Of a stretch of 64,000 nucleotides of DNA, positions 3,458-63,600 are shown in pieces. Source of the stretch: Bacteroidales bacterium. GTDB lineage: Bacteria > Bacteroidota > Bacteroidia > Bacteroidales > GCA-2748055. The position numbers and the translations under genes are program-made. Location of the stretch: contig JBBQAQ010000003.1 in NCBI GenBank assembly GCA_038316435.1, positions 94,134 to 158,133 of the forward strand. Direction: 5' to 3'. Within the stretch, counting starts at the first letter, position 1. Each line of letters starts with the position of its first letter. The notes below the pieces were generated by a model. It was not told the DNA's origin. It did no database searches and was given only the letters and a program-made list of their open reading frames with translations.

Positions 3458-3476
3458 TTATTCATAAACAAAATTG

Positions 3477-19331: not shown

Positions 19332-22300
19332 ATGTCAAAAGCAAAATCTAATTTCATAGTTGGTAGCATTCTGATGGTAGCAATATTAATATTGCTTTCC
19401 GGATGTTCTAAAAAGAAAGAAAAAGTTCAATTCATCACTCCGGCTTATAATCCTGAAATTGCTGCATTCACTTCGGGAATAATCCCATCAGAATCAGTGA
19501 TTCGGGTTAAACTCACTTCAGATTATGCTAAAGAATTCAATCCTGAGCAAGCTATTAATTTAAGTCTCTTTGATTTTAAACCTAGTATACAAGGAAGCAC
19601 CTACATTACCGATGCAAGAACAATTGAATTTCGCCCGGAAAATAAGATGCCGTCTGGCCAAACGTATAAAGCCGTTTTCAAGACATCAAAACTTTTGCCT
19701 GACAAAAAAGGAGTAAAAAGCTTTGAATTTCAATTCAGTATTATTCAACTAGATATCGCTTTGGATTTTTCAGGACTAAGATCTCAAAGCAGTAAAGATC
19801 TTATCTGGAATGAAATAAAAGGATCACTAATAACCACAGATAAAGTTTTAAGTGCCGATATAGAAAAAATTGTTTTGGCAGTACAAAATAGCCAAAATTT
19901 ACCTTTCATCTGGAAACATGATCCAAACGGACTAATTCATGAATTCACAATTGATAGTGTCCGTCGCACCGAAAAAAGAGAGACTGTTGACATAAGCTGG
20001 GATGCAGGTTCTCTTAAATCAAAGGCCAAAGGATCAAGAAAATATGAGATTCCTGCATTGAATGAGTTTACCCTTTTAGAAACTAAAATTATTCAGCAGC
20101 CTGAGCAATACATTCAAATATTATTTTCAGACCCAATTAAAACAGACCAATATTTAAATGGCCTAATTAGTCTGAGTAATAATGTAGGTTTAAGGTTTGC
20201 TGTTGATAATAATATGGTCAGGGCATATCCTGAAATCCGGCAAAGCGGAACCCTGGATTTGAATATACTATCTGGAATAAAGAATATTTTAGGCTTTAGT
20301 TATCTGGGATCCCAGGTAATTTCAGTAAATTTTGAAGAATTGAAACCTTCTATCCGTTTAATTGGACAAGGAGTAATTATGCCTCAATCAGAAGGATTAA
20401 TATTTCCTTTTGAGGCTGTTAATTTAAAAGCAGTGGATGTAAAAATAATTCGCATATATGAGAATAATGTAACTCAATTCCTGCAAATCAATGATCTGGA
20501 TGGTAATGATGAAATGAAACGAGCCGGTCGGCTTGTTGCAAAGAAAACTATTTCACTGAATTCGGATCGATCAATAAATTTCGGTGAGTGGAATGCTTTT
20601 GCTATCGACCTTTCAGACCTTATAAAATCAGAGCCCGGAGCAATTTACCGCGTAGAACTTGGATTTCGCAAAAAACACTCCCTTTACAAATGCAGTGATA
20701 GTGAAGACATGAGTTATGAAACATTGACTGATCCTAATAACAATGAGAATATAATTACAGGAAACGATTTATCATACTGGGATGCACAAAACGGGTATTA
20801 CAGTTATGAGAATTACGATGGTGAGTATGATTATGAATACAATTGGGATGAGAGAGATAATCCTTGTTCAGATTCATATTTCAACCAAAGTAGAAGTGTT
20901 TCCAGAAATATTCTCGCCTCAAATCTTGGAATAATTGCGAAGAAAGGATCCGATAACTCATTTTTATTTGCTGTAACAGACCTAGTTAGCTCTGAGCCAA
21001 TAAGTGGAGTAAATTTGGAATTATTCAATTTTCAACAACAAACGATTTCTTCATGCGAAACAGATAAGGAAGGTTTTGCCAGTGTTAAAACAGACCAACA
21101 AGCTTTTTTACTTGTAGCTAAGAAGGATAGTCAGAGAGGGTATCTCAAACTTTTTAATGGCGCTTCTTTGTCATATAGTCAATTTGATGTTTCAGGTAGT
21201 CCAGTTGATAAAGGTATTAAAGCATTTTTTTATGGCGAAAGAGGTGTTTGGCGCCCAGGGGATACATTATTTCTAAATTTAATTCTTGAGGATAATGATA
21301 AGGTTTTACCAGAAGGTCATCCTGTTATTTTTGAATTATTCGATGCTCGTGGGAAAATATATAAAAAGATAACATTGACAGAAGGATTAAATGGATTCTA
21401 TTCCTATAAAGTAGCAACTAGTTCAGACGCCCCTACTGGAAATTGGAGGTTAGATGCTATTGTTGGAGGGTTGACTTTCAGCCATGGGATTAAAATAGAG
21501 ACTGTGAAGCCAAATCGCCTGAAAATTAAACTTGAGTTTCCTGATAATGAGCTTCATGCGGATAATGCTTCAAATAAAGCCCGAATGATTGTTTCATGGT
21601 TGCATGGTTCTCCTGCTTCTTTTTTGGAAGCAAAAGTCGCCGTTAATTTTTCAGTAATGGACACCAGATTTAATGGTTTTGATGACTATGTGTTTACAGA
21701 TCCCTCAAAAATATTTTACCCGAGTGAACGTGAGATTTTCGAAGGAACCCTTAATGAAAATGGTGAGACAAGCTTTACCCCGGAGTTTTTTGTAAAAGGC
21801 ACAAGTCCCGGCAAACTTCGGGCAACATTCACTAGCAGGAGTTTTGAAAAAGGGGGTGACTTCAGCATTGATCAATTTTCAATTGCTTACTCCCCCTATA
21901 ATAATTATCTAGGATTAAAAATTCCCAAAGGTGATAACTATGGAATGCTTTCAACGGACACCTTGCAAGTTTTTGATATCGTAAGTTTAGATGACCATGG
22001 ACAAACAGTTGATATTGAAGGCCTTGAAGTGAGTGTGTTTAAACTTGATTGGCGCTGGTGGTGGCACTCTTCAGGAGAGAATTTAGCTTCATATACTGGA
22101 AGCTCTTATCGCGAACCAGTTTTCCAAAAAATTGTAAATACAAAATCTGGAAAAGCAAAATTTTCATTCAAGATAGGTACCCCGGATTGGGGGCGCTTTC
22201 TAATTAGAGTAAATGATCCTTTAGGACTTCATTCTACTGGTAAGATAGTGTATTTTGACAGTCCGGAATGGATGAGCAGAAGTTCACAAAACAATCCAGA

Positions 22301-24935
22301 GGCGGCCAGTATTATTATTCTTAGTTCAGATAAGGCTAAATATAATGTAGGTGAAACGGTTACTATAAATATTCCATCTGGAAAGTCTGGTAGAATATTA
22401 ATAAGCATTGAAAATGGAAGCAGAGTAATTGAACATTACTGGTTGCCTTCGAAAGGACAGCTTTCCACTTTTAGTTTCACTTTAACTCCGGAGATGACTC
22501 CAAATATTTATGTAAATGTTAGTTTGATTCAACAACATGCCCAAACCCAAAATGATCTTCCCATAAGGATGTATGGAGTAATCCCCATATTTGTTGAGAA
22601 CAAGGAGAGCCACCTTGAACCAGAGATTAGTATGCCGGATATTTTACGACCAGAAACTGAGGTAATTGTTCGGGTAAGCGAAAAAAACAAAAAAAGCATG
22701 ACATATACCCTTGCAATTGTTGATGAAGGATTGCTAGACCTGACTCGATTTAAAACACCTGATGCGTGGCAATTTTTTTATGCCAGAGAAGCCCTTGGTG
22801 TAAAAACTTTTGATATTTATGATTGGGTAATCGGAGCATACGGAGGCAGAATTGACGGAGTATTCAGTATTGGTGGAGGCGAAGACAGTGATGGGGCAAA
22901 GTCACAGACCAAAGCTAATCGATTTCCTCCAATGGTAAAATTTATTGGCCCTTTCGAACTCTCTGCCGGAGCAGTAAATTCTCATAAAATTACAATTCCC
23001 AATTACATTGGTTCAGTAAAAACTATGGTTGTAGCCGGGCAATCTGGGGCATACGGAAAAGCTGAAAAAATCTGCCCTGTAAGAAAACCACTGATGGTAC
23101 TGACTACTTTACCAAGAGTATTAGGGCCTGGTGAAACGGTCAGTATTCCGGTGACTGTTTTTGCAATGGAAGAACAGATTAAAAAAGTTAAAATTAAACT
23201 TGAGCTGAATGGTATATTTGAAACTGATGAAACTGAAAAAATAGTTGAATTCACAAGCCTAGGGGATAAAACAATCGACTTTAAAGTTAGAGTTAAATCA
23301 CAAACTGGTATAGGGAAAGTGAACATTATTGCAAGCTCAGGAAAAGAAGAGTCCAGAAGCGAAACAGAACTTGAGGTACGATCACCAAATCCTGAAATTA
23401 CTGAACAATATTATGGGGTTATAAATCCAGGTGAGGCATGGGAAAAACAGTTTGTTTCACCTGGTATTTCGGGAAGCAACAAGGCCGAACTGGAAGTATC
23501 TTCTCTACCCCCGGTAGATTTTGGAAGAAGGCTCAAATACCTTCTAAACTATCCTTATGGTTGTATGGAACAAGTAACTTCGGCTGTTTTCCCTCAATTA
23601 TTCCTTTCTGATGTAATGGACGTCGATCAGTATACAAAGGAATTTACTGACAAAAACGTTAAAGCAGGTATTCAGAAGATTCAGAGTTTTCAGTTATCAA
23701 GCGGGGGACTTGGTTTATGGCCGAATTCAACTTCTGAAAATGACTGGGGAACGAGTTATGCAGGACATTTCATGCTTGAGGCTCAGAAAAAAGGATATAC
23801 CGTATCCAAAGACTGGTTAAAGAAATGGATCACGTACCAAAAACGGATTGCACGATCATGGAGTGGAAGTCGTTATGAAACCAAATGGGAACAAAAATCC
23901 ATGGAACTTTGTCAGACCTACCGACTATATACCCTTGCTTTGGCAGGAGAACCTGAGTTAGGTGCAATGAATCGATTAAGGGAACAAGCGAATTTAGATG
24001 TTTCAGCCAGTTGGCAACTTGCTACAGCTTATGCTCTGGCCGGGCAACAAAAGACTGCTGATGAACTTGTAAAAACACTTACGACTAACATACCAGTGTA
24101 TAATGATACTTATTACACTTACGGATCTGAGTTGAGAGACAAAGGGTTCATTTTACAAACACTTACTTTATTAAACAGAAAAGAAGAGGCTATTCCTTTG
24201 ATGCAATACATTTCAGAAAAGCTAAGTAGTGAAGGTTGGTATAGTACACAAACAACGGCTGTTTGTCTAATGGCCGTTTCCCAGTATGCCGGACCAGAAA
24301 TGGTTTCGAAAAGCCTAAGCTATGACTTTAGCATCAATGGAAGCGAAATGAAACATGCTGCTTCAAATAGCTCCTACTCACAAATTCCAATTAAATTGGC
24401 AAAGTCAGAAGGAGGTAAAGTTGGCGTTAAAAATTCCGGGAATGGAATTTTATTTATCAGGCTTTCAGTGCATGGCGTTCCATTAGCTGGAAAAGAAAAG
24501 AGTGTTTCACAAAACCTAAGTATGCAAATAGTATATAAAAGTATGAACGGGAATTTAATAGATGTCAGCAGTCTGGAACAGGGAACCGACTTTCTTGCTG
24601 AAGTAAGAATCTATAATCCGGGAACTTTTGGTACTTACCAAAATCTTGCATTAACTCAGATATTTCCATCTGGATGGGAGATTCAGAACCAGCGACTTTT
24701 TGAAACCAATTTAGGAATAAACAGTGTTCCTGATTATCAGGATATTAGGGATGATAGGATTTATACCTTTTTTAGTCTTTCTAGTAATAGTTATAATAAC
24801 TATACTGTTAAACTCACCGCTGCGTATAAAGGTCGGTTTTATCTTCCCGGGATTTTGTGTGAAGAGATGTACCGGGGTGATGTCAGGGTTGTAGAAACAG
24901 GAAAATGGGTTGAAGTGAAAGGAAACGAGAAATAG
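19332..24935 (+). CDS. alpha-2-macroglobulin family lipoprotein (thioester-containing)
   Basis: 1867 aa. Lipobox ILLSGC. Thioester motif YPYGCMEQ (Cys codon at 23562-23564). Followed by pbpC after a 30-nt gap. Confidence 0.9.
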   Translation: MSKAKSNFIVGSILMVAILILLSGCSKKKEKVQFITPAYNPEIAAFTSGIIPSESVIRVKLTSDYAKEFNPEQAINLSLFDFKPSIQGSTYITDARTIEFRPENKMPSGQTYKAVFKTSKLLPDKKGVKSFEFQFSIIQLDIALDFSGLRSQSSKDLIWNEIKGSLITTDKVLSADIEKIVLAVQNSQNLPFIWKHDPNGLIHEFTIDSVRRTEKRETVDISWDAGSLKSKAKGSRKYEIPALNEFTLLETKIIQQPEQYIQILFSDPIKTDQYLNGLISLSNNVGLRFAVDNNMVRAYPEIRQSGTLDLNILSGIKNILGFSYLGSQVISVNFEELKPSIRLIGQGVIMPQSEGLIFPFEAVNLKAVDVKIIRIYENNVTQFLQINDLDGNDEMKRAGRLVAKKTISLNSDRSINFGEWNAFAIDLSDLIKSEPGAIYRVELGFRKKHSLYKCSDSEDMSYETLTDPNNNENIITGNDLSYWDAQNGYYSYENYDGEYDYEYNWDERDNPCSDSYFNQSRSVSRNILASNLGIIAKKGSDNSFLFAVTDLVSSEPISGVNLELFNFQQQTISSCETDKEGFASVKTDQQAFLLVAKKDSQRGYLKLFNGASLSYSQFDVSGSPVDKGIKAFFYGERGVWRPGDTLFLNLILEDNDKVLPEGHPVIFELFDARGKIYKKITLTEGLNGFYSYKVATSSDAPTGNWRLDAIVGGLTFSHGIKIETVKPNRLKIKLEFPDNELHADNASNKARMIVSWLHGSPASFLEAKVAVNFSVMDTRFNGFDDYVFTDPSKIFYPSEREIFEGTLNENGETSFTPEFFVKGTSPGKLRATFTSRSFEKGGDFSIDQFSIAYSPYNNYLGLKIPKGDNYGMLSTDTLQVFDIVSLDDHGQTVDIEGLEVSVFKLDWRWWWHSSGENLASYTGSSYREPVFQKIVNTKSGKAKFSFKIGTPDWGRFLIRVNDPLGLHSTGKIVYFDSPEWMSRSSQNNPEAASIIILSSDKAKYNVGETVTINIPSGKSGRILISIENGSRVIEHYWLPSKGQLSTFSFTLTPEMTPNIYVNVSLIQQHAQTQNDLPIRMYGVIPIFVENKESHLEPEISMPDILRPETEVIVRVSEKNKKSMTYTLAIVDEGLLDLTRFKTPDAWQFFYAREALGVKTFDIYDWVIGAYGGRIDGVFSIGGGEDSDGAKSQTKANRFPPMVKFIGPFELSAGAVNSHKITIPNYIGSVKTMVVAGQSGAYGKAEKICPVRKPLMVLTTLPRVLGPGETVSIPVTVFAMEEQIKKVKIKLELNGIFETDETEKIVEFTSLGDKTIDFKVRVKSQTGIGKVNIIASSGKEESRSETELEVRSPNPEITEQYYGVINPGEAWEKQFVSPGISGSNKAELEVSSLPPVDFGRRLKYLLNYPYGCMEQVTSAVFPQLFLSDVMDVDQYTKEFTDKNVKAGIQKIQSFQLSSGGLGLWPNSTSENDWGTSYAGHFMLEAQKKGYTVSKDWLKKWITYQKRIARSWSGSRYETKWEQKSMELCQTYRLYTLALAGEPELGAMNRLREQANLDVSASWQLATAYALAGQQKTADELVKTLTTNIPVYNDTYYTYGSELRDKGFILQTLTLLNRKEEAIPLMQYISEKLSSEGWYSTQTTAVCLMAVSQYAGPEMVSKSLSYDFSINGSEMKHAASNSSYSQIPIKLAKSEGGKVGVKNSGNGILFIRLSVHGVPLAGKEKSVSQNLSMQIVYKSMNGNLIDVSSLEQGTDFLAEVRIYNPGTFGTYQNLALTQIFPSGWEIQNQRLFETNLGINSVPDYQDIRDDRIYTFFSLSSNSYNNYTVKLTAAYKGRFYLPGILCEEMYRGDVRVVETGKWVEVKGNEK

Positions 24936-24965
24936 AAATTAATTTTATTTGATGGGTTCGAGTTT

Positions 24966-27323
24966 ATGAATAAATACTGGTTTTTGTTTGCATCATTTCT
25001 GGTTATGGTATTTGGTCTGGGATTTTGGTTTTGTTTACCCAGACCCTTGTTTTCAGATCCTTTTTGCACTGTAATCACTGATAGTAAGTTTGAAATGCTG
25101 GGAGCCAGGATAGCTGATGACGGACAATGGCGGTTTCCTGCAGGAGATAGCATTCCATTAAAGTACAAAAAATCACTTATACTTTTTGAAGACAAATATT
25201 TCTACAAACATCCAGGTATAAATCCCGTTTCTATTTTTAAGGCAATAGAGAGAAATATCAAAGCCGGTAAAATAATCAGTGGTGGCAGTACGATTTCTAT
25301 GCAAGTAATTCGTTTGTCAAGAAAGGGTAAGCCAAGAAATATTTATCAGAAGTTAGTAGAAATCATTTTGGCAGTAAGATTGGAATTGTCATTTACAAAG
25401 GAGGAAATTCTACTATTATATTCGTCGCATGCTCCCTTTGGTGGAAATGTTGTAGGCTTGGAGGCAGCATCTTGGCGGTATTTTGGAAGAAATCCAAATA
25501 CGCTTTCCTGGTCTGAGGCAGCTGTAATCGCTGTTTTACCGAATTCACCTTCGCTTGTTCATCCAGGTAAAAACAGGGAGAGATTAAAAATAAAAAGGAA
25601 CCGCCTTCTTACGAAACTTTATATGTCTGGGGAAATTGATAGCCTTAGTTTTCATCTTGCTTTGGCAGAATCCTTACCGGAAAAACCGTTTCCTCTACCC
25701 CGTTTAGCTCCGCATTTGCTTGACAGGTTTTATATAGAAAACAAAGGAAACAGAGTCAGAACAAGTATCAACAAAAATTTGCAGGAGAAAGTTGAACGGC
25801 TCATGTCGGTTCAGAAAGAGCGCCTTTACAGTAATGATATCCATAATGCAGCGTGCCTGATCATAGATATAAAAAATGAATCTGTTCTCACCTATTATGG
25901 AAACATACAAAATATTGAGCATCCTGAATATGGAGGAGAGGTTGATGTTATTCATTCACCCCGTAGTTCAGGAAGCATTTTAAAGCCCTTTTTGTTTGCT
26001 GAAATGATTCAGCGGGGAGTTATTCTTCCAGCGATGCTTATTGCTGATATACCTACTTTTTACGGGAATTTTAGCCCAAAAAATAATACGAGAGAATATG
26101 ATGGAGTTGTGCCAGCAAGAATGGCATTAAGCCGTTCATTAAATATTCCTGCAGTAAGGATGTTGCGATTATATGGAGTCGAAAGGTTTAGTGATGATCT
26201 TAAAGCATTAGGTATTAACACCTTATCACATTCTTCGGGACGTTACGGTTTAAGCCTTATTTTAGGTGGTGCTGAAACAAGTTTATGGGATCTTGCCGGG
26301 GTATTTTCAGGGTTTGCCCGAATCCTGAATGATTATAATGAAAACAATGGTTGTTATTTCGAGGGAGCATTGAATAAACCAGCCTTAATTTTTTCAGATA
26401 ATACCAGCCAAGCAAGCAGAAATAAACAAGAACAGGGAATTATAGGAGCAGGTGCTGTTTACCTCACATTTAAAGCTCTAATAGATGTAAACCGCCCTGA
26501 TCAGGAGAGTGGATGGGAAAGTTTTGCATCAACCCGTAAAATAGCATGGAAAACAGGTACTAGTTTCGGATTCCGCGATAGTTGGGCGATTGGCGTAACA
26601 CCAGAATATGCTGTTGCAGTATGGTCTGGTAATGCAACCGGAGAAGGCAGTCCCGGGTTAACTGGAATAAACGCATCTGCCCCAATTCTTTTTGAACTAT
26701 TCAACCTGCTTCCCGCAACAAGCTGGTTTAAGGTACCTTATGACGATTTATTACAAGTTAAAATTTGTTTAAAAAGCGGGCATTTGGCTGGCCAGGCATG
26801 TGTTGAAACAGATTCAGCATGGGTTCCTGAGGCGGGCTTACAAACCACTGTATGTCCGTATCATAAATTGATTCATCTGGATCATGAGAAAAAACAGAGA
26901 GTAAGCAGCGATTGTTATCCTGTTGAAAACATGGTGCATGAATCCTGGTTTGTTTTACCCCCTGTTCAAGAATGGTACTTCCGTCAGAAAAATCCATGGT
27001 ACAAAGAACTTCCTCCCTATAAAACTGGCTGTGAGGAGAGAAATGAGATTTCACAGATGCAAATGATTTATCCTGAAATAGGAACCATTGTATATGTACC
27101 TTATGAACTGGATGGATCAAGAGGGAGACTTGTCTGTGAAGCTGTGCATAGAAATCCCGGAAGTGAAATTTTCTGGCATATTGATGATCAATACCTTGGA
27201 AAAACAAAAGGACGGCATCAAATGGCCATTATTCCGGAAAAGGGAAAACATGTTATAAGGTTGATTGATTCAGATGGTGTCAGAATAAGTGTGGAGTTTG
27301 AGGCAATAGACCGAGGAAAATGA
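24966..27323 (+). CDS. pbpC: penicillin-binding protein 1C
   Basis: Glycosyltransferase motifs EDKYFYKHPGINP and GGSTISMQ, transpeptidase SxxK (SILK), and a C-terminal PBP1C-type extension; 785 aa. Confidence 0.9.
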   Translation: MNKYWFLFASFLVMVFGLGFWFCLPRPLFSDPFCTVITDSKFEMLGARIADDGQWRFPAGDSIPLKYKKSLILFEDKYFYKHPGINPVSIFKAIERNIKAGKIISGGSTISMQVIRLSRKGKPRNIYQKLVEIILAVRLELSFTKEEILLLYSSHAPFGGNVVGLEAASWRYFGRNPNTLSWSEAAVIAVLPNSPSLVHPGKNRERLKIKRNRLLTKLYMSGEIDSLSFHLALAESLPEKPFPLPRLAPHLLDRFYIENKGNRVRTSINKNLQEKVERLMSVQKERLYSNDIHNAACLIIDIKNESVLTYYGNIQNIEHPEYGGEVDVIHSPRSSGSILKPFLFAEMIQRGVILPAMLIADIPTFYGNFSPKNNTREYDGVVPARMALSRSLNIPAVRMLRLYGVERFSDDLKALGINTLSHSSGRYGLSLILGGAETSLWDLAGVFSGFARILNDYNENNGCYFEGALNKPALIFSDNTSQASRNKQEQGIIGAGAVYLTFKALIDVNRPDQESGWESFASTRKIAWKTGTSFGFRDSWAIGVTPEYAVAVWSGNATGEGSPGLTGINASAPILFELFNLLPATSWFKVPYDDLLQVKICLKSGHLAGQACVETDSAWVPEAGLQTTVCPYHKLIHLDHEKKQRVSSDCYPVENMVHESWFVLPPVQEWYFRQKNPWYKELPPYKTGCEERNEISQMQMIYPEIGTIVYVPYELDGSRGRLVCEAVHRNPGSEIFWHIDDQYLGKTKGRHQMAIIPEKGKHVIRLIDSDGVRISVEFEAIDRGK

Positions 27324-29247: not shown

Positions 29248-32019
29248 TCAATGAGCTTCAAGCCAGTTAAATCCAGTACCCATTTCAACAAGCAAAGGAA
29301 CGGAGAGTTTGATCGCTCCTTCCATCTCTGAACGAACAAGGTTCATCAGTTTACTTTCCTCTGCTTTTTTCATATCAAAAACAAGTTCATCATGAACCTG
29401 CAAAATCATTTTTGAGTTCATTTGAGCCTCTTTCATCTTGTTGTGGATATTGATCATGGCTATCTTAATAATATCAGCAGCAGAACCCTGAATAGGTGCG
29501 TTAATAGCGTTTCTTTCTGCCATACCTCTTATTCCCTGATTTCGGGAATTTATATCAGGTAATTGTCTTTTTCTTCCAAGCATTGTTGTTACGTACCCTG
29601 TTTCTCGAGCCAGACGTATGCTTTGATTCATATATTCTTTTACCCCTGGGAAAGTATTGAAGTAATTATCAATGAGATCTTTAGCGTCTGATCTGCTAAT
29701 ATTAAGTCGTTGGGAAAGACCAAAAGCAGAGATGCCATATATTATTCCAAAATTCGCAGTTTTTGCTCGGCTACGCATTTCACGTGAAACATCTGCCAAT
29801 TCAATTTTATAGATTTTAGCTGCAGTTGCGGTATGAATATCTTCACCAAGCATAAATGCGCTGATCATATTTTCATCTTTGCTTAGGTGGGCCATCAGTC
29901 TCAATTCTATCTGAGAATAGTCGGCAGAAAGAAACAGGTTTTCGGAACTTTCAGGAACAAAAGATTTTCTAATCTCTCTTCCCCTTTCTTCACGAATAGG
30001 AATATTCTGCAAATTCGGATTATTAGAACTTAGCCTCCCTGTCGCGGCTACAGTCTGGTTAAAGGAGGTATGAATTTTACCGGATTTATTATCTACAAGT
30101 TTTGGAAGTGTGTCTACATAGGTGGAAAGAAGTTTTTTAAGTCCGCGATATGTAAGAACCTCTTCCACAATAGGATGTTTTCCTGTAAGTCGAGCAAGAA
30201 CCTCCTCCCCGGTTGAATATTGCTTGGTTTTAGTCATTTTTGCGTCGTTGTCAATTTTAAGACGGTCAAAAAGCACTTCACCTAACTGTCGGGGAGACTG
30301 AATATTGAATTCATGTCCAGCCAGCTTATATATTTTTTCTTCGGTTAGCAGAATATCTTTGACCAGTTCTGTACGGAAATCTACAAGAGTTTCTTTGTCA
30401 AGTTTAATTCCATTCTGCTCCATTTCAGCCAGGACTTTGATTAATGGCATTTCTATCTTTTCAGCAAGTTCAAACAATCCCTCGGTTTTTAGCTGATCAA
30501 TGAATTTCTCATATAATAAAAACGCCAGATCAGCATCTTCGGCAGCATAATCTTTGATTTTCTCTATTGGGACATCCTTCATATTGCCTTGATTTTTCCC
30601 TTTTTCTCCAATAAGTTCTTCAATTTTTACAGGCGAATATTGAAGGTAATTTTCCGATAAAACATTTAGGTTATGACGTTGATCTGGTTGCAATAGATAA
30701 TGAGCGATCATGGTATCGAAATATGATCCTCCCACTTCAATCCCGTACTTTTTAAGCATGCGGGTGTCAAATTTCAGATTTTGTCCTATTTTAAGGATAT
30801 TTTGGTTTTCTAATGCAGATTTGAAGGGACTCAACATTTTTACTGCATCATCAAATAATTGGGGTAGAGGAATATAAAAAGCTTCGTTAGGTTTAATAGA
30901 AAAGGAAATTCCCACTAAATCAGCTGAAAAAATGTCAAGATCTGTTGTTTCTGTATCGAAAGAAAAAGCATCGGAATTATTCAAGTCATCAGCTAACTTT
31001 TTTAAAGAAATTTCCTCATTAACCAGGACATAATTTTTTTGAACAGTATTAATAGTATTATAATTTGAAACGATTGGTTCAACAGAAGAAAAACCGGAAA
31101 AGAGGTTTCCTTGCTGAGAATTTGTTTGAATTGGTTTTGTTTCTGGCTTTATTTGTCTAGTTAGCAGTGTTTTAAACTCAAGTTCCTGAAATATTTCTTT
31201 AATCTTTTCTGAATTCACCACTTCTTTTATATATAAATCAGCATCGAAGTTTACTGGAACGTCAAGGCGGATAGTAACGAGTTCGCGGGAAAGGTAAGCT
31301 TGCTCTTTAAATTTCTCAAGATTTTCGCGAAGTTTCCCTTTAAACTTATCGAGGTTAAGATATATATTATCAAGGCTATGAAATTCAGAGATCATTTTTA
31401 TTGCTGTCTTCTCTCCCACTCCAGGAACACCGGGAACATTATCAGATGAATCTCCCCAGAGGGCAAGAATATCGATAAACTGAGCCGGATCCGTAATACC
31501 GAATTTTAAACAAATTTCATTTTTCCCAATTATTTCAGAGACGCTTCCTGCTTTTCGAGGTTTGAATAAAACAATATTATCAGAAACGAGCTGATTATAA
31601 TCCTTATCAGGAGTCATCATAAATACCTTAAAGCCCTCTTTTTCAGCTTGTTTAGCTAAGGTTCCAATGACATCATCGGCTTCAAATCCCGCGCATTGAA
31701 TTACCGGAATATTATATGCTTCAATAATTTTTTTAATCTGAGGTACAGCCTTTCTAATATCTTCAGGTGTTTCCTGCCGATTGGCTTTATAGGCTGGAAA
31801 AAGTTCATTTCTGAAGGTTGGGCCTGCGGGATCGAAGGCAACAGCAATATGGGAAGGGTTTTGATTTTTCAGAACGTCATCAAGAGTAATTGTAAAACCA
31901 AAAGCAGTTGACGTATTCTGCCCTTTGGAGTTTTTCATGGGATTAGAAATAAAAGCATAATAAGATCTGAAAATCAGGGCGTATGCATCAAGCAGAAATA
32001 GTCTTTTATCGGTATCCAT
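29248..32019 (-). CDS. polA: DNA polymerase I
   Basis: 5' nuclease domain, exonuclease-like domain, and polymerase motifs DYSQIELR, RSRAKTANFGIIYG, QVHDELV; 923 aa. Confidence 0.97.
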   Translation of the reverse strand: MDTDKRLFLLDAYALIFRSYYAFISNPMKNSKGQNTSTAFGFTITLDDVLKNQNPSHIAVAFDPAGPTFRNELFPAYKANRQETPEDIRKAVPQIKKIIEAYNIPVIQCAGFEADDVIGTLAKQAEKEGFKVFMMTPDKDYNQLVSDNIVLFKPRKAGSVSEIIGKNEICLKFGITDPAQFIDILALWGDSSDNVPGVPGVGEKTAIKMISEFHSLDNIYLNLDKFKGKLRENLEKFKEQAYLSRELVTIRLDVPVNFDADLYIKEVVNSEKIKEIFQELEFKTLLTRQIKPETKPIQTNSQQGNLFSGFSSVEPIVSNYNTINTVQKNYVLVNEEISLKKLADDLNNSDAFSFDTETTDLDIFSADLVGISFSIKPNEAFYIPLPQLFDDAVKMLSPFKSALENQNILKIGQNLKFDTRMLKKYGIEVGGSYFDTMIAHYLLQPDQRHNLNVLSENYLQYSPVKIEELIGEKGKNQGNMKDVPIEKIKDYAAEDADLAFLLYEKFIDQLKTEGLFELAEKIEMPLIKVLAEMEQNGIKLDKETLVDFRTELVKDILLTEEKIYKLAGHEFNIQSPRQLGEVLFDRLKIDNDAKMTKTKQYSTGEEVLARLTGKHPIVEEVLTYRGLKKLLSTYVDTLPKLVDNKSGKIHTSFNQTVAATGRLSSNNPNLQNIPIREERGREIRKSFVPESSENLFLSADYSQIELRLMAHLSKDENMISAFMLGEDIHTATAAKIYKIELADVSREMRSRAKTANFGIIYGISAFGLSQRLNISRSDAKDLIDNYFNTFPGVKEYMNQSIRLARETGYVTTMLGRKRQLPDINSRNQGIRGMAERNAINAPIQGSAADIIKIAMINIHNKMKEAQMNSKMILQVHDELVFDMKKAEESKLMNLVRSEMEGAIKLSVPLLVEMGTGFNWLEAH
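29776..29791. other. parS-like site inside polA (CATTTCACGTGAAACA, 14/16)
   Basis: The core TTTCACGTGAAA palindrome is intact, and the two mismatches are at the outer 5' positions. It lies within a conserved polA coding segment, so it could be coincidental. Confidence 0.3.
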
Positions 32020-36285: not shown

Positions 36286-37914
36286 TCAGTTTTCGAAAAG
36301 ATCTGTAAATTCAAATCTTACACCATCAAATAGTCCCTTATTGCTAAGTTTTAATTCTGGAATTACCAACAAGGACATAAAGCTTAATGTCATAAAAGGA
36401 GCCTTTAGCTTAGATCCTAAATCTGCCGCCGCATTATTTAGCCGCAAATACTGTTCTGCAACCCATTCACCTTTTTGGTCAGACATTATACCTGCAATTG
36501 GCAAAGGAATACCAGAAACAGAAATTCCGTTATGAACTGCTACTCCCCCTTTATTTTTCACGATCCAGTTTATACATTCTGCAATTTGATCATTATTAAC
36601 TCCAACAGCAATAATATTATGAGAATCGTGTGCAATTGAACTTGCAATTGCCCCTTTCTTTAATCCAAAATTATGAATATATGCAATTACAGGTTTCTCC
36701 TTCTCATATCGGTTTAAAACAACTAGTTTTAAGATATCTTTAGTTATATCAGAAGCAAGGTCGATCCCATTAGATTTGAGAGTTGTTTTAAAAGATTTAG
36801 TAACAAGTTCGCCATCAGTAACTGAAATAACTTTTATTGAACAATTATTCTTCGGTCTGACAATAATTGAATCGGGGGAAATTTGCTTAGCGTTAAATCT
36901 ATTTACAAGTTTTTGCTTTCTTATCTCCCTTAGTCCCTTTGAGCGATCGAAAACCTTTTGTCCTTTAATATAAGATTCGCTAACATCAAACTTCACAATA
37001 TTATCGACTCTTATAAAATCGCCCCCATCACCCACCCTGAGCATTCCCATATTTAGTCCATAATGTGAATTTGGATTAAGGGTAACTGTTTTGATTAGGT
37101 TGAAAAGGTTTATTCCACGCTTTACTCCTTTAGCTAAAAGCATATTTATATGACCTTCCAAAAGATCATCAGGGTGAAGGTCATCAGAACATAGGAAAAC
37201 ACTATTTGGATATTTATCAATGAGTGGCCATAAAGCATCAAAATTTTTAGCGGCACTCCCCTCTCTAATTTGGATCTTCATTCCCAAATTTATCTTTTCT
37301 GTTGCCTCGTCTATCGTGGAGCATTCATGGTCAGTTTCAATTCCAGCGCCAACATACTTTTTTAGCTCCTGTCCTGTCAGACCAGGAGCGTGTCCATCAA
37401 TTCTCTTATTATATCGTTTGGCAATATCTATTTTCTTATGCACTTCTTTCTCGTCGAAAATCACTCCTGGGTAATTCATTACTTCGGAAAGAAATAAAAG
37501 TTTTTGATTTTCAAATAAGGACTCTATTTGGTTTGAACTAATTTTCCCACCAGAAGTTTCAAAATCTGTAGCCGGAACGCAACTCGGCACCCCGAAGAAA
37601 AATCTAAGATCGGCCTTACTTGCATTTTCAATCATATATTTAACCCCGTCCACGCCTAAGACATTTGCAATCTCGTGTGGATCTGAAACTACTGCAAGGG
37701 TACCATGTGAAATTGCTATTCTACCAAAATTCTGCGGAGTAAGCATAGAGCTTTCAATATGAATGTGGGAATCTATTAGACCTGGTAGCAAATATGAATC
37801 CAACAAGGAATTAAGACGGTCAATGGAAACAATTAATCCGTCTTCGATCGATATCTCTGCCCCGTAGATTTCTTCTTTGAAGATATCTACCAAATTTCCT
37901 CTGATTATTTCCAA
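36286..37914 (-). CDS. ade: adenine deaminase
   Basis: Amidohydrolase metal motif DSHIHIESS. The 542 aa length is colinear with Ade. TTG start; there is no ATG/GTG upstream in frame. Confidence 0.88.
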   Translation of the reverse strand: MEIIRGNLVDIFKEEIYGAEISIEDGLIVSIDRLNSLLDSYLLPGLIDSHIHIESSMLTPQNFGRIAISHGTLAVVSDPHEIANVLGVDGVKYMIENASKADLRFFFGVPSCVPATDFETSGGKISSNQIESLFENQKLLFLSEVMNYPGVIFDEKEVHKKIDIAKRYNKRIDGHAPGLTGQELKKYVGAGIETDHECSTIDEATEKINLGMKIQIREGSAAKNFDALWPLIDKYPNSVFLCSDDLHPDDLLEGHINMLLAKGVKRGINLFNLIKTVTLNPNSHYGLNMGMLRVGDGGDFIRVDNIVKFDVSESYIKGQKVFDRSKGLREIRKQKLVNRFNAKQISPDSIIVRPKNNCSIKVISVTDGELVTKSFKTTLKSNGIDLASDITKDILKLVVLNRYEKEKPVIAYIHNFGLKKGAIASSIAHDSHNIIAVGVNNDQIAECINWIVKNKGGVAVHNGISVSGIPLPIAGIMSDQKGEWVAEQYLRLNNAAADLGSKLKAPFMTLSFMSLLVIPELKLSNKGLFDGVRFEFTDLFEN

Positions 37915-37934: not shown

Positions 37935-37950
37935 TGTTCCACGTGGAACA
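37935..37950. other. parS centromere-like site 1 (TGTTCCACGTGGAACA, perfect 16-bp palindrome)
   Basis: Matches the ParB-binding consensus tGTTNCACGTGAAACa at 15/16 positions and is self-complementary. Lies in the mnmG-ade spacer. Confidence 0.8.
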
Positions 37951-37966
37951 TGTTCCACGTGAAACA
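37951..37966. other. parS centromere-like site 2 (TGTTCCACGTGAAACA)
   Basis: 16/16 match to the Bacillus-type parS consensus. It directly abuts site 1 and the mnmG stop codon (37967-37969). Confidence 0.85.
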
Positions 37967-39841
37967 CTATTTTGAAATATACATTAAGAGAACTGAAATA
38001 TCAGCCGGAGAAACTCCGCTAATTCTTGAAGCTTCGCCAATTGTTTCTGGTCTGATTTTAGTTAACTTTTGTCTAGCCTCAATTGATAAAGAGATAATAG
38101 TATAAAAATCTAAATCATCTTTAATTTTAATACCTTCTAATCTCTTAATTTTTTCAGCCATTAACTTTTCACGTTCTATATAACCTTCATATTTAATATC
38201 AATTTCTGCTGATTCGCAAATCTCATTAGCTCTGTTGCCGAATACAATTAAAAGTTCGTTAAATCCTGGAATGAAATCTATTAGGTTTGAAAGTGAAATC
38301 TGAGGGCGCCTCAGAATATCTATTAATTTAATTTTCTGAGTAATTGTATTTGTATCCTTTTCAGAAAGCAAGCTGTTAATCTGTTTAGGGCTCACACTCG
38401 TTTTTTCAAATAAGCTTCTTATTTCTTTCTTCCATTCTCTCTTTTGTAATAGTAAGTTTAACCTTTGTTCGTTAGCAAGGCCAAGGGTGAAAGCCAGTTC
38501 TGTTAATCTCTCATCTGCATCATCCTGCCTTAAAAGTATTCTATATTCAGCTCTGGAAGTAAACATTCTATAAGGTTCATCAACTCCTTTTGTAATTAGG
38601 TCATCGATTAATACTCCAATATAAGCTTGATCGCGGCCAAGAACGAATTCATCTTTTTTCCTGATTTTCAAAGAGGCATTAATCCCAGCCATAAGTCCTT
38701 GAGCAGCGGCTTCCTCATAGCCTGTAGTTCCATTAATCTGTCCCGCAAAATATAAACCTTTGACTTTTTTTGTTTCTAAGGTTCTTGATAATTGTGTTGG
38801 TTGATAAAAATCGTATTCAATAGCGTATCCAGGGCGGAATATCTTCAGGTTCTCAAAACCACTAATTTTTTTTAAAGCTTCGTATTGAATTTGCCAAGGT
38901 AGAGATGAACTAAAACCGTTAAGATAATATTCAATTGTATTTGGTCCCTCCGGTTCTAAAAAAAGCTGATGTTGATCTTTTCCGGCAAATGTGTGAATTT
39001 TATCTTCAATGCTTGGGCAATATCTAGGTCCAATGCTTTTTATAGTTCCGTTATACATTGGAGAATCTGCAAGTCCTTCTCTAATTATTTCATGAACATT
39101 AGAATTTGTATATGCAATATAGCAGCATTGATGTTTTGAATAATTTACCTCATAATCCAAATAAGAAAATTTTCTGTTTTCAAAATCACCATCCTGTTTT
39201 TCAAGAACTGAAAAATCAATGCTTCTTCCATCCAATCGAGCCGGCGTACCAGTTTTCATTCGACCTACTTCAAAACCATAATCTTTAAGTTGATCGGAAA
39301 TGCCAATTGAAGCAGGTTCAGAAGCACGACCTCCATCAATTTGAGTTCTCCCAATATGCATAAGTCCATTCTGGAATGTTCCGCTTGTAAGAATAACTGC
39401 AGATGCTTTAATACTAATTCCCATAAGAGTTCGCACCCCAGTAATCTTTCCCTTCTCTATAATTAAAGATATCGCCATATCTTGCCAAAAATCCAAATTT
39501 AGAGTTTGTTCCAGCATTTCTCTCCAAACAACACTAAATCTTGTTCTGTCACATTGAGCTCTAGGGCTCCACATTGCTGGACCCTTAGACCTGTTGAGAA
39601 GACGATATTGAATCATTGTGTCATCTGTAACTATGCCAGAATAACCACCGAGAGCATCAACTTCTCTTATAATTTGCCCTTTAGCCACACCCCCCATTGC
39701 CGGGTTACAACTCATTTGCCCAAACTTTGTCATATCCATCGTTATTAACAAAGTTTTACTCCCCAAATTAGCTGAAGCTGCTGCGGCTTCACAACCTGCA
39801 TGACCAGCTCCAACAACAATTACATCATATTTCGGAAACAT
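37967..39841 (-). CDS. mnmG: tRNA uridine 5-carboxymethylaminomethyl modification enzyme MnmG (GidA)
   Basis: FAD motif YDVIVVGAGHAGCEAA; 624 aa. Confidence 0.97.
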   Translation of the reverse strand: MFPKYDVIVVGAGHAGCEAAAASANLGSKTLLITMDMTKFGQMSCNPAMGGVAKGQIIREVDALGGYSGIVTDDTMIQYRLLNRSKGPAMWSPRAQCDRTRFSVVWREMLEQTLNLDFWQDMAISLIIEKGKITGVRTLMGISIKASAVILTSGTFQNGLMHIGRTQIDGGRASEPASIGISDQLKDYGFEVGRMKTGTPARLDGRSIDFSVLEKQDGDFENRKFSYLDYEVNYSKHQCCYIAYTNSNVHEIIREGLADSPMYNGTIKSIGPRYCPSIEDKIHTFAGKDQHQLFLEPEGPNTIEYYLNGFSSSLPWQIQYEALKKISGFENLKIFRPGYAIEYDFYQPTQLSRTLETKKVKGLYFAGQINGTTGYEEAAAQGLMAGINASLKIRKKDEFVLGRDQAYIGVLIDDLITKGVDEPYRMFTSRAEYRILLRQDDADERLTELAFTLGLANEQRLNLLLQKREWKKEIRSLFEKTSVSPKQINSLLSEKDTNTITQKIKLIDILRRPQISLSNLIDFIPGFNELLIVFGNRANEICESAEIDIKYEGYIEREKLMAEKIKRLEGIKIKDDLDFYTIISLSIEARQKLTKIRPETIGEASRISGVSPADISVLLMYISK

Positions 39842-39855
39842 AAAATATTTTTGCT

Positions 39856-39863
39856 CAAAGATA
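39856..39863 (-). promoter_or_regulatory. -7 motif TATCTTTG upstream of mnmG
   Basis: The plus strand CAAAGATA gives TATCTTTG on the minus strand, 14 nt before the mnmG ATG. Confidence 0.35.
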
Positions 39864-39897
39864 ATTATTTAAAAACAATTTAAATAAAGCGAACTGC

Positions 39898-60576: not shown

Positions 60577-60621
60577 CTAATGTGTTAATTTTCTCATGAA
60601 GCAATTAGCACATTAGTTTTT
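60577..60621 (+). terminator. hairpin + T5 between the HMA gene and cusA (terminator/attenuator)
   Basis: 14-bp stem with one mismatch (CTAATGTGTTAATT / AATTAGCACATTAG), a 12-nt loop, then TTTTT. It ends 22 nt before the cusA ATG. Confidence 0.55.
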
Positions 60622-60643
60622 AAATAATTATATCTCTAAAAAC

Positions 60644-63600
60644 ATGTTTAATCGACTCGTCAAATACTTCCTCGAAAACCGACTGATCACGTTCATTTTC
60701 CTATTCACTTTTGTGATACTGGGGCTAGTATATACTCCATTTAACTGGCGTACAGGATTTATCCCTAGGGATCCGATCCCTGTAGATGCAATTCCTGATA
60801 TTGGCGACAACCAGCAAATTGTTGCTACAGAATGGATGGGTCGGTCACCAAAAGATATTCAGGACCAGGTGACATATCCGCTAACTACTGCATTACTCGG
60901 AGTTCCAGGAGTGAGTACCGTGCGAAGCACGTCTATGTTTGGGATGTCATTTATTTATATAATTTTTAAAGATAATGTTGAATTTTACTGGAGCCGATCA
61001 CGAATTCTTGAAAAGCTAAATTCTCTTCCATCGGGGACGTTGCCGGAAGGTGTTAGTCCGACACTTGGTCCTGATGCGACCTCACTTGGACAGATTTTCT
61101 GGTACACACTTGAGGGCAGAGATCCTAAAACTGGCCAACCAAACGGAGGATGGAATCCGCAGGAACTTCGTGCGATTCAGGACTTTTACGTCAAATACGG
61201 ACTTACAACAGCAGAAGGGGTTTCGGAAGTTGCATCTGTAGGGGGATTTATTAAGGAATACCAGGTAGACATTATTCCGGAAGCGATGAAAGCCTTTCAG
61301 GTTACGGTTATGGACGTGATGAAAGCTGTGAGGAACAGTAATCTTGATATTGGTGCCGAAACAATTGAACTAAATAATGTAGAATATATAATTCGTGGTC
61401 TTGGCTATGTTAAGAACCTAAGCGATCTGGAACTTTCAGTTGTTGCTGTCAGAAATAACGTTCCTGTACGAATTAAGGATATTGCCCGCACCTCCTTTGG
61501 TCCCGCAACCAGGCGTGGCGGGCTTGACAAAGAAGGATCAGAGGCTGTCGGGGGAGTTGTGGTAGCTCGTTACGGTTCAAACCCAATGATGGTCATTGGA
61601 AACATAAAAGATAAAATTAAAGAAATTGACGCAGGACTTCCTCAAAAAACACTGGCTGACGGAAGCATATCAAAAGTAAGAATTATCCCATTTTACGATC
61701 GCACCAGCCTGATAAAAGAAACGATCGGCACTCTGGAGTCGGCACTTTCCCACGAAATACTGATAAGCATTATCGTAATTATTATTCTGGTTCTTAATCT
61801 CAGGGCATCAATTATTGTCGCCGGACTGCTGCCAATAGGCGTGTTGATGACTTTTATACTGATGCGTATCTTTGGCGTTGATGCCAACATTGTTGCATTG
61901 TCGGGTATTGCCATTGCAATTGGTGTAATGGTTGATATCGGGATTGTAGACGTGGAAAATATTCTTCGGCACCTTGAAATGCCTGAAAACAAAGGCGTGA
62001 GGGGCAAGAAACTCATGTCGGTAATTTATTTGGCGACCACAGAAGTACGAGCGGCCGTGGTTACTTCGATCGCTACCACAATCGTTAGTTTCCTTCCAGT
62101 GTTTGCAATGCAGGCATCTGAAGGTAAATTATTTCATCCTCTGGCTTTTACAAAGACCTTTGCACTACTATCTGCCTTTATCTTAGGTATAGTGGTTTTG
62201 CCAACATTGGTACATATTTTCTTTGATATTCGTTTCGACGGCAAAAAAATCCGAAAAATATGGAACGGTATTTTAATTCTTGCAGGAATTGTTTTTGTGG
62301 TTCTCTGGCAAACTTGGCCGGCATTAGCTCTTACAGCTATCGGAGTTAACAATCTTTTTGAAAGCCGCTGGCCGTCTGCCCGAAAGGAATTTCCAAATTA
62401 CATAAACATAGCCATTGCTGTGTTGGTAGCGTTATATTATTTATCGATAGAATGGAGACCCCTTGGTGCACACAACAGCATTCTGGTTAATTATTTATTT
62501 GTAGGGGGAATTGTTACTGTCATCTTATCCGCACTAATGAGTCTGGTTCATTTTTATGAGCCAATATTACGCTGGGCGCTGCGAAACAAGTGGAAATTTC
62601 TATCGCTTCCATTATTTACTGTGGTTTTCGGATTATTAGTATGGCAGGGGAGCAATAAATTATTTGGTTTTATTCCGAAGGGATTTGAAATCGCAGGATG
62701 GACAAGCTTTCGCCAAACATCAGTATGGCAGGGAGCCATTAAGGCTTTTCCCGGAACGGGCAAAGAATTTATGCCATCACTGAATGAGGGGTCATTTCTA
62801 CTTATGCCAACGAGCATGCCACATTCAAGTATAGAGAAAAATCTGGAATACATTGAGATTCTTGATAAGCGTTTAGCGGCAATTCCGGAAGTTGAGTTAG
62901 CTGTTGGGAAATGGGGACGGGTGAACTCGGCATTAGATCCTGCACCGGTACAAATGTTCGAAAACACGATAAATTATCGCTCTGAATTTATTTTGGATGA
63001 CGATGGTCACCGTATGCAATTTAAGACCGACAAGGAAGGAAATTACCTTTTTAAAAGTGGAGCAAAATATAATCCAGAAACCGATGGGTTCCGGATCATT
63101 CCAAGGGATAGCCTTATACCGGATAAGAATGGAGAATATTTTCGTCAATGGCGGCCAGAGATTAAAAAACCAGTTGATATCTGGAATGAGATAGTAAAAG
63201 TTACCAATATTCCTGGTCTGACATCCGCTCCCAAGTTGCAACCCATCGAAACAAGGCTTGTGATGCTTTCTACAGGGATGAGGGCGCCAATGGGACTTAA
63301 AGTTTTTGGTCCGGATATGGAATCGATTGAGATTTCAGGAAAAGAATTTGAAAAAGCGCTGAAGGAAGTCCCGTTAGTAAAGGCATCCACAGTTTTTTAT
63401 GACCGCTCAGTAGGTGCGCCGTATATTGAGATTAAGCTCAACCGGGAGGCAATGGCGAGATATGGAATGAGCGTAAATGAGGTTCAGGAGGTTTTACAAG
63501 TGGCGATAGGAGGAATGGTTCTCAGCAATTCTGTAGAAGGACTTGAACGTTTTCCCATGAGAGTGAGATATGCCCGGGAATTACGGGATAATCCCGAAGA

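What the first reader, a model, noticed from the sequence alone, without database searches (positions are those of the whole stretch)
37935..37966. Two head-to-tail consensus parS sites fill the mnmG-ade spacer
The 32 nt TGTTCCACGTGGAACA|TGTTCCACGTGAAACA are two directly abutting ParB-binding (parS) sites. The first is a perfect 16-bp palindrome and the second matches the Bacillus-type consensus tGTTNCACGTGAAACa exactly. The pair starts one base after the mnmG stop codon and ends 20 nt before the ade TTG start, so it occupies most of the 52-nt spacer. In genomes I know, parS sites are usually dispersed singly around oriC. An abutting pair would place two ParB dimers side by side and could be a particularly strong nucleation or loading site. 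mnmG (gidA) and rnpA, classic origin-region genes, lie in the same window. Because each copy is self-complementary and the copies complement each other, the transcribed pair could also form a long RNA hairpin at the mnmG 3' end.
Basis: partly seen in the sequence, partly recalled or inferred. Interest (0 to 1): 0.62.

Follow-up and report, generated by a model that had tools for sequence, protein, structure and literature searches.

The report
Two abutting parS centromere sites after mnmG
The 32 bases after the mnmG gene are two back-to-back copies of the bacterial chromosome "centromere" sequence parS; relatives keep two such sites next to mnmG, so the element is real and conserved but is an ordinary parS locus in an unusually tight arrangement.

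Summary
Window 37935-37950 (TGTTCCACGTGGAACA) and 37951-37966 (TGTTCCACGTGAAACA) are two abutting consensus parS sites. They lie between the mnmG stop codon and the ade TTG start, on the minus strand of a Bacteroidota genome.

Comparative evidence shows they are genuine and under selection. Of 76 metagenomic relatives (MnmG 59-81% identical), 59 have a parS within 30 nt of the mnmG stop. Of 74 with both flanks available, 53 carry exactly two parS sites next to mnmG: one on each side (36), both downstream (13) or both upstream (4). Only the 16-mer is conserved; the flanks are randomised. Only 2 other sites occur in 658 kb.

Gaps between neighbouring downstream sites run from 0 to 352 nt. Abutment is therefore one end of a continuum, not a fixed geometry.

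Exact abutting pairs are rare: 20 loci among 185,579 species genomes. Every one whose context I resolved lies at mnmG or, in the Clostridium perfringens group, directly after parB.

The window holds no parA, parB, dnaA, DnaA-box cluster or skew inversion, so origin proximity and a cognate ParB remain untested. The RNA hairpin is predicted but has no U-tract and is not the conserved feature.

Verdict: a new member of a known kind, of modest interest.

The parts
37951..37966 (.). parS site proximal to mnmG. It reads TGTTCCACGTGAAACA on the + strand and TGTTTCACGTGGAACA in mnmG sense, and directly abuts the mnmG TAG stop.
   Evidence: Searches give an exact match to the consensus. A parS at -30..+30 nt from the mnmG stop is present in 59 of 76 relatives.
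37935..37950 (.). parS site distal to mnmG: TGTTCCACGTGGAACA, a perfect palindrome, with zero gap to the first site and 20 nt before the ade TTG start.
   Evidence: The same abutting second copy is kept in syntenic relatives L002, L006, L010, L011, L016, L018, L022 and L023, whose flanks are otherwise unalignable.
37967..39841 (-). mnmG (gidA), the tRNA U34 carboxymethylaminomethyl-modification enzyme. This is the gene the parS sites track across relatives.
   Evidence: TIGR00136, 816 bits. parS stays with mnmG whatever gene lies downstream: ade follows in only 12 of 67 relatives.
36286..37914 (-). ade (adenine deaminase), the downstream neighbour. Its start lies 20 nt from the pair, so its expression could be affected secondarily.
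   Evidence: TIGR01178, 604 bits. Synteny mnmG-pair-ade-uvrC is shared with L002, L006, L010, L011 and L018.

Best explanation
The 32-mer is two functional chromosomal parS sites, the 16-bp palindromes where ParB dimers bind, close into CTP-dependent clamps and slide away to build the partition complex that ParA segregates. They belong to a conserved mnmG-linked centromere of Bacteroidota. This lineage keeps two parS copies pressed against the ends of the mnmG reading frame, probably a relic of the widespread mnmG-(rsmG)-parA-parB arrangement from which parAB has since moved away. In this genome and its closest relatives both copies lie downstream with zero spacing, most simply through a 16-bp tandem duplication. 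Each copy most likely acts as an independent ParB loading site, so two copies raise loading capacity or give redundancy, and the abutment itself has no separate mechanism. What is shown: sequence identity to parS, positional conservation, purifying selection on both copies, and variable spacing. What is inferred: ParB binding, clamp loading, the dosage role and the evolutionary route.
For: - Both sites match the consensus exactly.
- Among metagenomic relatives with MnmG 59-81% identical, 59 of 76 have a parS within 30 nt of the mnmG stop. Of 74 with both flanks, 53 have exactly two sites at mnmG, distributed (upstream, downstream) as (1,1) 36, (0,2) 13 and (2,0) 4. Only 2 other sites occur in 658,285 bp of flanks.
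- The flank alignment and per-position information show 2.0 bits at all 12 inner specified positions and roughly 0.1-0.9 bits outside the site.
- The abutting pair persists in syntenic genomes down to about 62-69% MnmG identity, with diverged flanks. Both copies are therefore under selection.
- Gaps between neighbouring downstream sites are 0, 0, 8, 9, 15, 19, 29, 34, 36, 42, 42, 81, 86, 102, 223 and 352 nt, so there is no fixed phasing.
- Outside Bacteroidota the abutting pair sits inside mnmG-(rsmG)-parA-parB clusters: Clostridium L003, Bryobacteraceae L007 and a betaproteobacterium L015.
- A Bacteroidota species, Bacteroides caecimuris, has ParABS homologues, and its parS cluster lies at the Hi-C secondary-diagonal crossing taken as the origin (PMC10197239).
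- In vitro, ParB-driven condensation scales with parS copy number (PMC8299390).
Against: - No parA or parB lies in the 64-kb window or within 6 kb of mnmG in Bacteroidota-type relatives, so a cognate ParB for this genome is assumed, not shown.
- Origin proximity is untested. There is no DnaA-box cluster (25 matches against 20 expected), and the strand-independent GC skew shows no sign change across the window.
- The abutting arrangement is retained across a fairly deep subclade and recurs in the C. perfringens group, Chlorobium, an acidobacterium and a betaproteobacterium. That leaves room for a benefit of abutment itself.
- Whether two ParB dimers can occupy sites 16 bp apart centre to centre at the same time is not known to me and was not tested.
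Confidence: 0.8

Rival explanations
1. The abutting geometry is itself functional. Four evenly spaced half-sites would recruit two ParB dimers as a cooperative unit, or one bound dimer would act as a roadblock that biases the direction in which the other's clamps slide. This would give a stronger or directional loading site than two separated sites.
For: Exact zero-gap pairs recur independently in several phyla and are kept across a Bacteroidota subclade. They are far above chance: 20 loci against roughly 1e-5 expected in 596 Gb by my arithmetic. Protein roadblocks are known to stop sliding ParB (PMC8299390).
Against: Relatives with the same two-site count show gaps from 0 to 352 nt, or sites 1.9 kb apart on either side of mnmG. 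There is no preferred helical phasing, which is not what a geometry-dependent mechanism predicts. Zero-gap pairs are rare overall: 20 of 185,579 species genomes and 2 of 67 metagenomic relatives. A 16-bp tandem duplication explains their origin without invoking function.
Confidence: 0.12
2. The primary role is at the RNA level. The transcribed 32-nt near-palindrome would form a long hairpin at the mnmG 3' end that terminates or attenuates transcription, protects the mRNA 3' end, or controls ade translation. The resemblance to parS would then be incidental.
For: The predicted 14-bp hairpin gives -23.5 kcal/mol for the 91-nt context, z = -4.2 against shuffles. It lies 20 nt upstream of the ade start.
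Against: No U-tract follows the stem, and the terminator scan does not call it. What relatives conserve is the exact parS sequence, with no compensatory variation in the CACGTG core and arms. Most relatives have a single 16-mer at this spot, which could form only a roughly 6-bp stem. The same motif also occurs upstream of the mnmG start and next to parAB in other phyla.
Confidence: 0.04
3. The sites are bound by a different CACGTG-recognising regulator of mnmG or ade, or are a chance or assembly artefact.
For: No ParB gene is seen in the window. Draft assemblies do break at this palindrome: contigs L021, L012 and L013 end in it.
Against: All 14 specified positions match the ParB consensus, not merely the CACGTG core. 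The downstream gene varies while the site stays with mnmG. Independent assemblies and at least 10 relatives carry the same pair. Chance expectation is negligible.
Confidence: 0.03

Closest known systems
Chromosomal parS sites of the Bacillus subtilis / Spo0J type (consensus tGTTNCACGTGAAACa; Lin and Grossman 1998 and Livny et al. 2007, both cited from my own knowledge because Livny et al. is not in the held library)
   Same: The 16-bp palindromic sequence is identical. The association with the mnmG/gidA-parAB neighbourhood is seen in other phyla. The expected role is ParB nucleation and CTP-clamp loading.
   Different: Here two sites touch with no spacer, and they are uncoupled from parAB, which is absent from the 64-kb window. 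B. subtilis sites lie kilobases apart (PMC5815017).
Clustered parS centromeres, such as the Caulobacter crescentus parS1-7 cluster (five strongest sites within 5 kb, PMC5815017) and the ten Corynebacterium glutamicum parS sites (PMC7083940)
   Same: Several parS copies are concentrated in one short region and act as one centromere. New sites are tolerated best next to existing ones (PMC5815017).
   Different: The cluster here is minimal, with exactly two copies, and maximally compact at 32 bp. ParB binding has not been measured in this lineage.
Abutting parS pairs in other genomes found here: the Clostridium perfringens group (directly after the parB stop), Chlorobium sp. N1, a Bryobacteraceae MAG, a betaproteobacterial MAG and several Bacteroidota MAGs
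   Same: The same zero-gap two-copy architecture, usually touching or overlapping the end of a reading frame. L002, L006, L010, L011, L016 and L018 show the same mnmG-pair-(ade)-uvrC synteny as the window.
   Different: In the non-Bacteroidota cases the pair lies within or beside the parAB operon. In three cases (L009, L014, L015) it lies upstream of mnmG rather than downstream.
Plasmid centromeres built of tandem repeats, such as F sopC with twelve 43-bp repeats (my own knowledge)
   Same: Repeated ParB-family binding sites arranged head to tail.
   Different: The repeat unit is larger, with spacer DNA between the binding palindromes, and there are many copies. The sequence and ParB subtype differ, and the element is on a plasmid. 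The 32-mer has no match in PLSDB plasmids.

Membership tests
Chromosomal parS (ParB-binding centromere site) | 16-bp inverted repeat matching TGTTNCACGTGAAACA | tested here: met
   Site 37951-37966 has 0 mismatches. Site 37935-37950 has 1 mismatch to the strict form and 0 to TGTTNCACGTGNAACA, and is a perfect palindrome.
Chromosomal parS (ParB-binding centromere site) | Sequence-level conservation at the orthologous position in diverged relatives, as expected of a protein-binding site under selection | tested here: met
   59 of 76 relatives have a parS at the mnmG stop. The inner 12 specified positions are invariant in 57 distinct sequences while the flanks carry roughly 0.1-0.9 bits. Caveat: sites were picked with at most 1 mismatch, so the high information inside the site is partly by construction.
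Chromosomal parS (ParB-binding centromere site) | Few copies per genome, not scattered at random | tested here: met
   Apart from the pair, the 64-kb window has only one weak site, with 2 mismatches, inside polA. Relatives have 2 other sites in 658 kb outside the mnmG borders. The whole genome could not be scanned.
Chromosomal parS (ParB-binding centromere site) | Cognate parB (and parA) encoded in the same genome | not testable with these tools
   Neither gene is in the window (NCBIfam and Pfam scans; tblastn). The source genome is not among the held genome contigs, and only short Logan contigs carry the identical MnmG. The literature reports ParABS homologues in Bacteroidota species (PMC10197239).
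Chromosomal parS (ParB-binding centromere site) | Location in the origin-proximal part of the chromosome | tested here: inconclusive
   There is no dnaA or dnaN, no DnaA-box cluster (25 matches against 20 expected), and no sign change in strand-independent GC skew. The origin is therefore not inside the window, and its distance is unknown.
Chromosomal parS (ParB-binding centromere site) | ParB binding and spreading or sliding from the site | not testable with these tools
   This needs ChIP-seq, EMSA or CTP clamp-loading assays.
Intrinsic (Rho-independent) terminator | G+C-rich stem-loop followed directly by a U-tract | tested here: not met
   The stem is present (14 bp), but the following sequence is GUCUUAAAACUG, and the scan reports no terminator at 37935-37966.
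Intrinsic (Rho-independent) terminator | Structure conserved rather than sequence (compensatory changes among relatives) | tested here: not met
   Relatives keep the exact parS sequence. Most have a single copy that can form only a short hairpin.
Known RNA families (Rfam) | Match to a curated covariance model | tested here: not met
   The whole window gives no Rfam hit at gathering score and no tRNA or tmRNA.

The most novel reading that the evidence does not exclude
The zero-gap pair is a distinct double-loading centromere module. Two ParB dimers would sit on four evenly spaced half-sites, about half a helical turn out of phase, and would load clamps cooperatively or directionally. This module would have arisen repeatedly (Bacteroidota, C. 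perfringens group, Chlorobium, an acidobacterium, a betaproteobacterium). In a phylum where two studied gut species lack recognisable condensins (PMC10197239), the two mnmG-hugging sites would be the whole chromosomal centromere.
Probability: 0.1. Interest if true: 0.55.

Novelty: new member of a known kind. Interest (0 to 1): 0.3.

Why it matters
parS sites are textbook elements, so identifying one adds little on its own. The comparative result is more useful. In this Bacteroidota clade the centromere appears to be just two parS copies held against the ends of mnmG, even though parAB lies elsewhere, and the copy number is conserved while the arrangement drifts.

This has three practical uses:
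- It gives a simple marker for the segregation centre, and probably the origin region, in Bacteroidota MAGs, where dnaA is an unreliable guide (PMC10197239).
- It provides a natural spacing series, from 0 to 352 nt and 1.9 kb, for testing whether neighbouring ParB loading sites help or hinder each other.
- It warns that the 32-bp palindrome breaks short-read assemblies, so such sites are under-counted in draft genomes.

Tried and rejected
- I looked for parA, parB, dnaA and dnaN in the window with NCBIfam and Pfam scans of the ORFs of at least 100 aa and with tblastn using ParA and ParB taken from L003, L007 and L015. None was found.
- I looked for an origin. The DnaA-box scan was not enriched or clustered. 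Raw GC skew follows gene orientation. After separating the coding-strand effect, the residual skew is weakly positive in all four quarters, so no origin or terminus lies inside the window. This test has low power.
- I tried to identify the source genome. The 32-mer pattern scan of 185,579 species genomes did not return it. The exact MnmG is found only on short Logan contigs.
- I tested the terminator or RNA-element idea: a fold is predicted, but there is no terminator call and no Rfam family.
- I searched PLSDB plasmids for the 32-mer and found no match.
- In the literature, Livny et al. 2007 could not be read. Searches for Bacteroidota parS/mnmG work returned nothing specific. The ParB review PMC7022226 mentions neither Bacteroidota nor gidA.
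- Correction: an interim note of mine said the pairs in L009 and L014 follow mnmG. One search shows they lie upstream of the mnmG start.

Full report
**Observation**

The sequence is as described. Window 37935-37950 reads TGTTCCACGTGGAACA, a perfect palindrome, and 37951-37966 reads TGTTCCACGTGAAACA, with no base between them. Both genes are on the minus strand. mnmG runs 39841->37967 (TIGR00136, 816 bits) and its TAG stop touches the pair. ade runs 37914->36286 (TIGR01178, 604 bits) and begins at a TTG 20 nt past the pair. uvrC follows. The pair fills 32 of the 52 spacer bases.

With up to 2 mismatches to TGTTNCACGTGNAACA the window has 3 matches against 0.16 expected, and 0 of 100 shuffles reach 3. 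The third match is a weak site inside polA. A Logan metagenome contig that encodes the identical MnmG carries the first 27 nt of the pair and then ends. This supports the sequence independently, and it also shows that assemblies break at this point.

**Context in the window**

G+C is about 34%. The neighbouring genes are ybeY, an anti-sigma-kinase-like gene, an M23 peptidase, a LolB1_Flavo-type lipoprotein insertase, a TPR protein, dut, polA and rnpA. All close matches in the genome collection are titled as Bacteroidota MAGs. The organism is therefore a Bacteroidota.

The window has no parA, parB, dnaA or dnaN. It has no enrichment or clustering of DnaA boxes, with 25 matches against 20 expected. 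It has no Rfam family or tRNA. Raw GC skew follows gene orientation. After I regressed out the coding strand, the residual skew is weakly positive in all four quarters of the window. No origin or terminus lies inside the window, and the distance to the origin is unknown.

**How common are abutting pairs**

An exact scan of one genome for each of 185,579 species with TGTTNCACGTGNAACATGTTNCACGTGNAACA found 20 loci. By my arithmetic, chance would give about 1e-5.

- Nine loci belong to the Clostridium perfringens group. In L003 the gene order is mnmE-mnmG-rsmG-parA-parB and the pair directly abuts the parB stop. In the seven other loci of the group that hold parB, the ParB match likewise ends a few bases from the pair. 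The ninth, L012, holds only the far side of an assembly break at the pair.
- Of the other eleven, six Bacteroidota MAGs (L002, L006, L010, L011, L016, L018) have the pair at offset 0 from the mnmG stop. They share the window's ybeY-mnmG-pair-(ade)-uvrC order, with MnmG 62-76% identical.
- Chlorobium L019 has the pair 10 nt after the stop.
- Bryobacteraceae L007 has it overlapping the mnmG 3' end, directly before parA-parB.
- L009, L014 and the betaproteobacterial L015 have it just upstream of the mnmG start.

Two C. perfringens contigs begin exactly with the pair. Draft assemblies therefore break there, and 20 is a lower bound.

**What relatives do**

A metagenome scan with the window's MnmG returned 80 loci at 59-81% identity. 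I mapped parS sites (at most 1 mismatch) relative to the mnmG frame.

- 59 of 76 loci have a site within 30 nt of the stop, mostly at -2 to +8.
- 45 of 76 have a site within 100 nt upstream of the start.
- Of 74 loci with both flanks available, 53 have exactly two sites, 15 have one and 6 have none.
- The two-site loci split as one upstream plus one downstream (36), two downstream (13) and two upstream (4).
- Only 2 further sites occur in the remaining DNA, out of 658,285 bp scanned.
- The downstream gene is ade in only 12 of 67 loci, whereas ybeY is upstream in 67 of 76. The sites therefore track mnmG, not ade.

Aligning the region after the stop shows that only the 16-mer is recognisable; everything around it has diverged. 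In 57 distinct sequences the 12 inner specified positions are invariant, and all tolerated mismatches fall on the two outermost bases. This result is partly by construction, because sites were selected with at most 1 mismatch.

Gaps between neighbouring downstream sites are 0, 0, 8, 9, 15, 19, 29, 34, 36, 42, 42, 81, 86, 102, 223 and 352 nt.

No parA or parB lies within 6 kb of mnmG in any of these loci.

**Interpretation**

The evidence is what one expects of sequence-specific protein-binding sites under purifying selection, and the sequence is that of parS. The most economical reading is that these are the chromosomal ParB loading sites of this lineage.

Their attachment to mnmG mirrors the mnmG-(rsmG)-parA-parB neighbourhood of other phyla (PMC13438810 for Pseudomonas). 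This suggests the sites stayed with mnmG when parAB moved away. That step is inferred.

The conserved quantity is the number two, not the geometry. I therefore take the zero-gap arrangement to be a 16-bp tandem duplication that works as two independent loading sites.

Literature support is indirect. Bacteroides caecimuris has ParABS homologues and a parS cluster at the Hi-C secondary-diagonal crossing that marks the origin, while dnaA is not a reliable origin marker in that data set (PMC10197239). In vitro, condensation by ParB scales with parS copy number, and sliding clamps are stopped by protein roadblocks (PMC8299390). Intergenic parS sites can repress adjacent promoters in Pseudomonas (PMC7022226), so a side effect on ade is possible but untested.

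**Rivals**

- A geometry-dependent double site is not excluded, because zero-gap pairs recur in several phyla and persist within a subclade. The spacing continuum argues against it.
- An RNA role is unlikely to be primary. The transcript can form a 14-bp hairpin (-23.5 kcal/mol for the 91-nt context, z = -4.2; as single-stranded DNA -10.7 kcal/mol). However, no U-tract follows it, there is no terminator call, and single-site relatives lack the long stem.
- Chance, an assembly artefact or a different regulator are contradicted by the statistics, the independent assemblies and the full 14-position match.

**Limits**

I could not show a parB in this genome, the distance to oriC, or ParB binding. 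Livny et al. 2007, the main comparative survey, was not readable, so I cannot say whether it lists mnmG-adjacent sites in Bacteroidetes. The ParB review I could read mentions neither Bacteroidota nor gidA.

**Verdict**

The abutting arrangement is rare, but it is best seen as one end of a spacing continuum within a conserved two-site, mnmG-linked centromere. It is a new member of a known kind, of modest interest.

Noticed in passing
L022-L101 (metagenome relatives), relative to mnmG; window 39842-39897 for comparison: In about half of the relatives mnmG is bracketed by parS: one site 15-45 nt upstream of the start (between ybeY and mnmG) and one at the stop codon. Four loci have both sites upstream. 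The window's own ybeY-mnmG spacer has no parS remnant. The total of two sites is conserved while their placement changes.
   Followed up: yes
L021 (contig end, 27 nt after the mnmG stop); L012 and L013 (positions 1-32): Short-read contigs end exactly in the 32-bp palindromic pair. This is seen in the Logan contig carrying the window's MnmG and in two contigs of one C. perfringens assembly that share the pair at their ends. Abutting parS pairs are therefore probably under-counted in draft genomes.
   Followed up: partly
window 29776-29791: A weaker parS-like site, CATTTCACGTGAAACA, has 2 mismatches at one outer end and a perfect inner 12-bp palindrome. It lies inside polA, 8.1 kb from the pair. 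In polA sense it encodes V-S-R-E-M, just before what I take (from memory of E. coli Pol I) to be polymerase motif B, so it may be a by-product of coding. Its conservation in relatives was not checked.
   Followed up: no
L001, L003-L005, L008, L013, L017, L020 (C. perfringens group): These clostridia carry TGTTTCACGTGAAACA twice with zero gap. In L003 the pair directly abuts the parB (spo0J) stop codon at the end of mnmE-mnmG-rsmG-parA-parB, and in the other loci the ParB match ends a few bases from the pair. Most of these loci also contain a second ParB-like (Noc-type) match upstream.
   Followed up: partly
window 19332-27323: A 1867-aa bacterial alpha-2-macroglobulin is followed by a PBP1C-type penicillin-binding protein (Transgly, BiPBP_C). 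To my knowledge this is a known gene pairing.
   Followed up: no
window 3474-4511, 5327-6574, 37967-39841: Three genes for wobble-uridine (U34) tRNA modification lie in one 64-kb window: mnmH (selenouridine synthase), a TrhP/U32-peptidase-family gene and mnmG.
   Followed up: no
window 60617-64000: The higher G+C at the right end (0.41-0.42) coincides with one reading frame of more than 1128 aa that runs off the window and so is missing from the ORF list. Its N-terminus looks like a membrane transporter. It was not annotated.
   Followed up: partly
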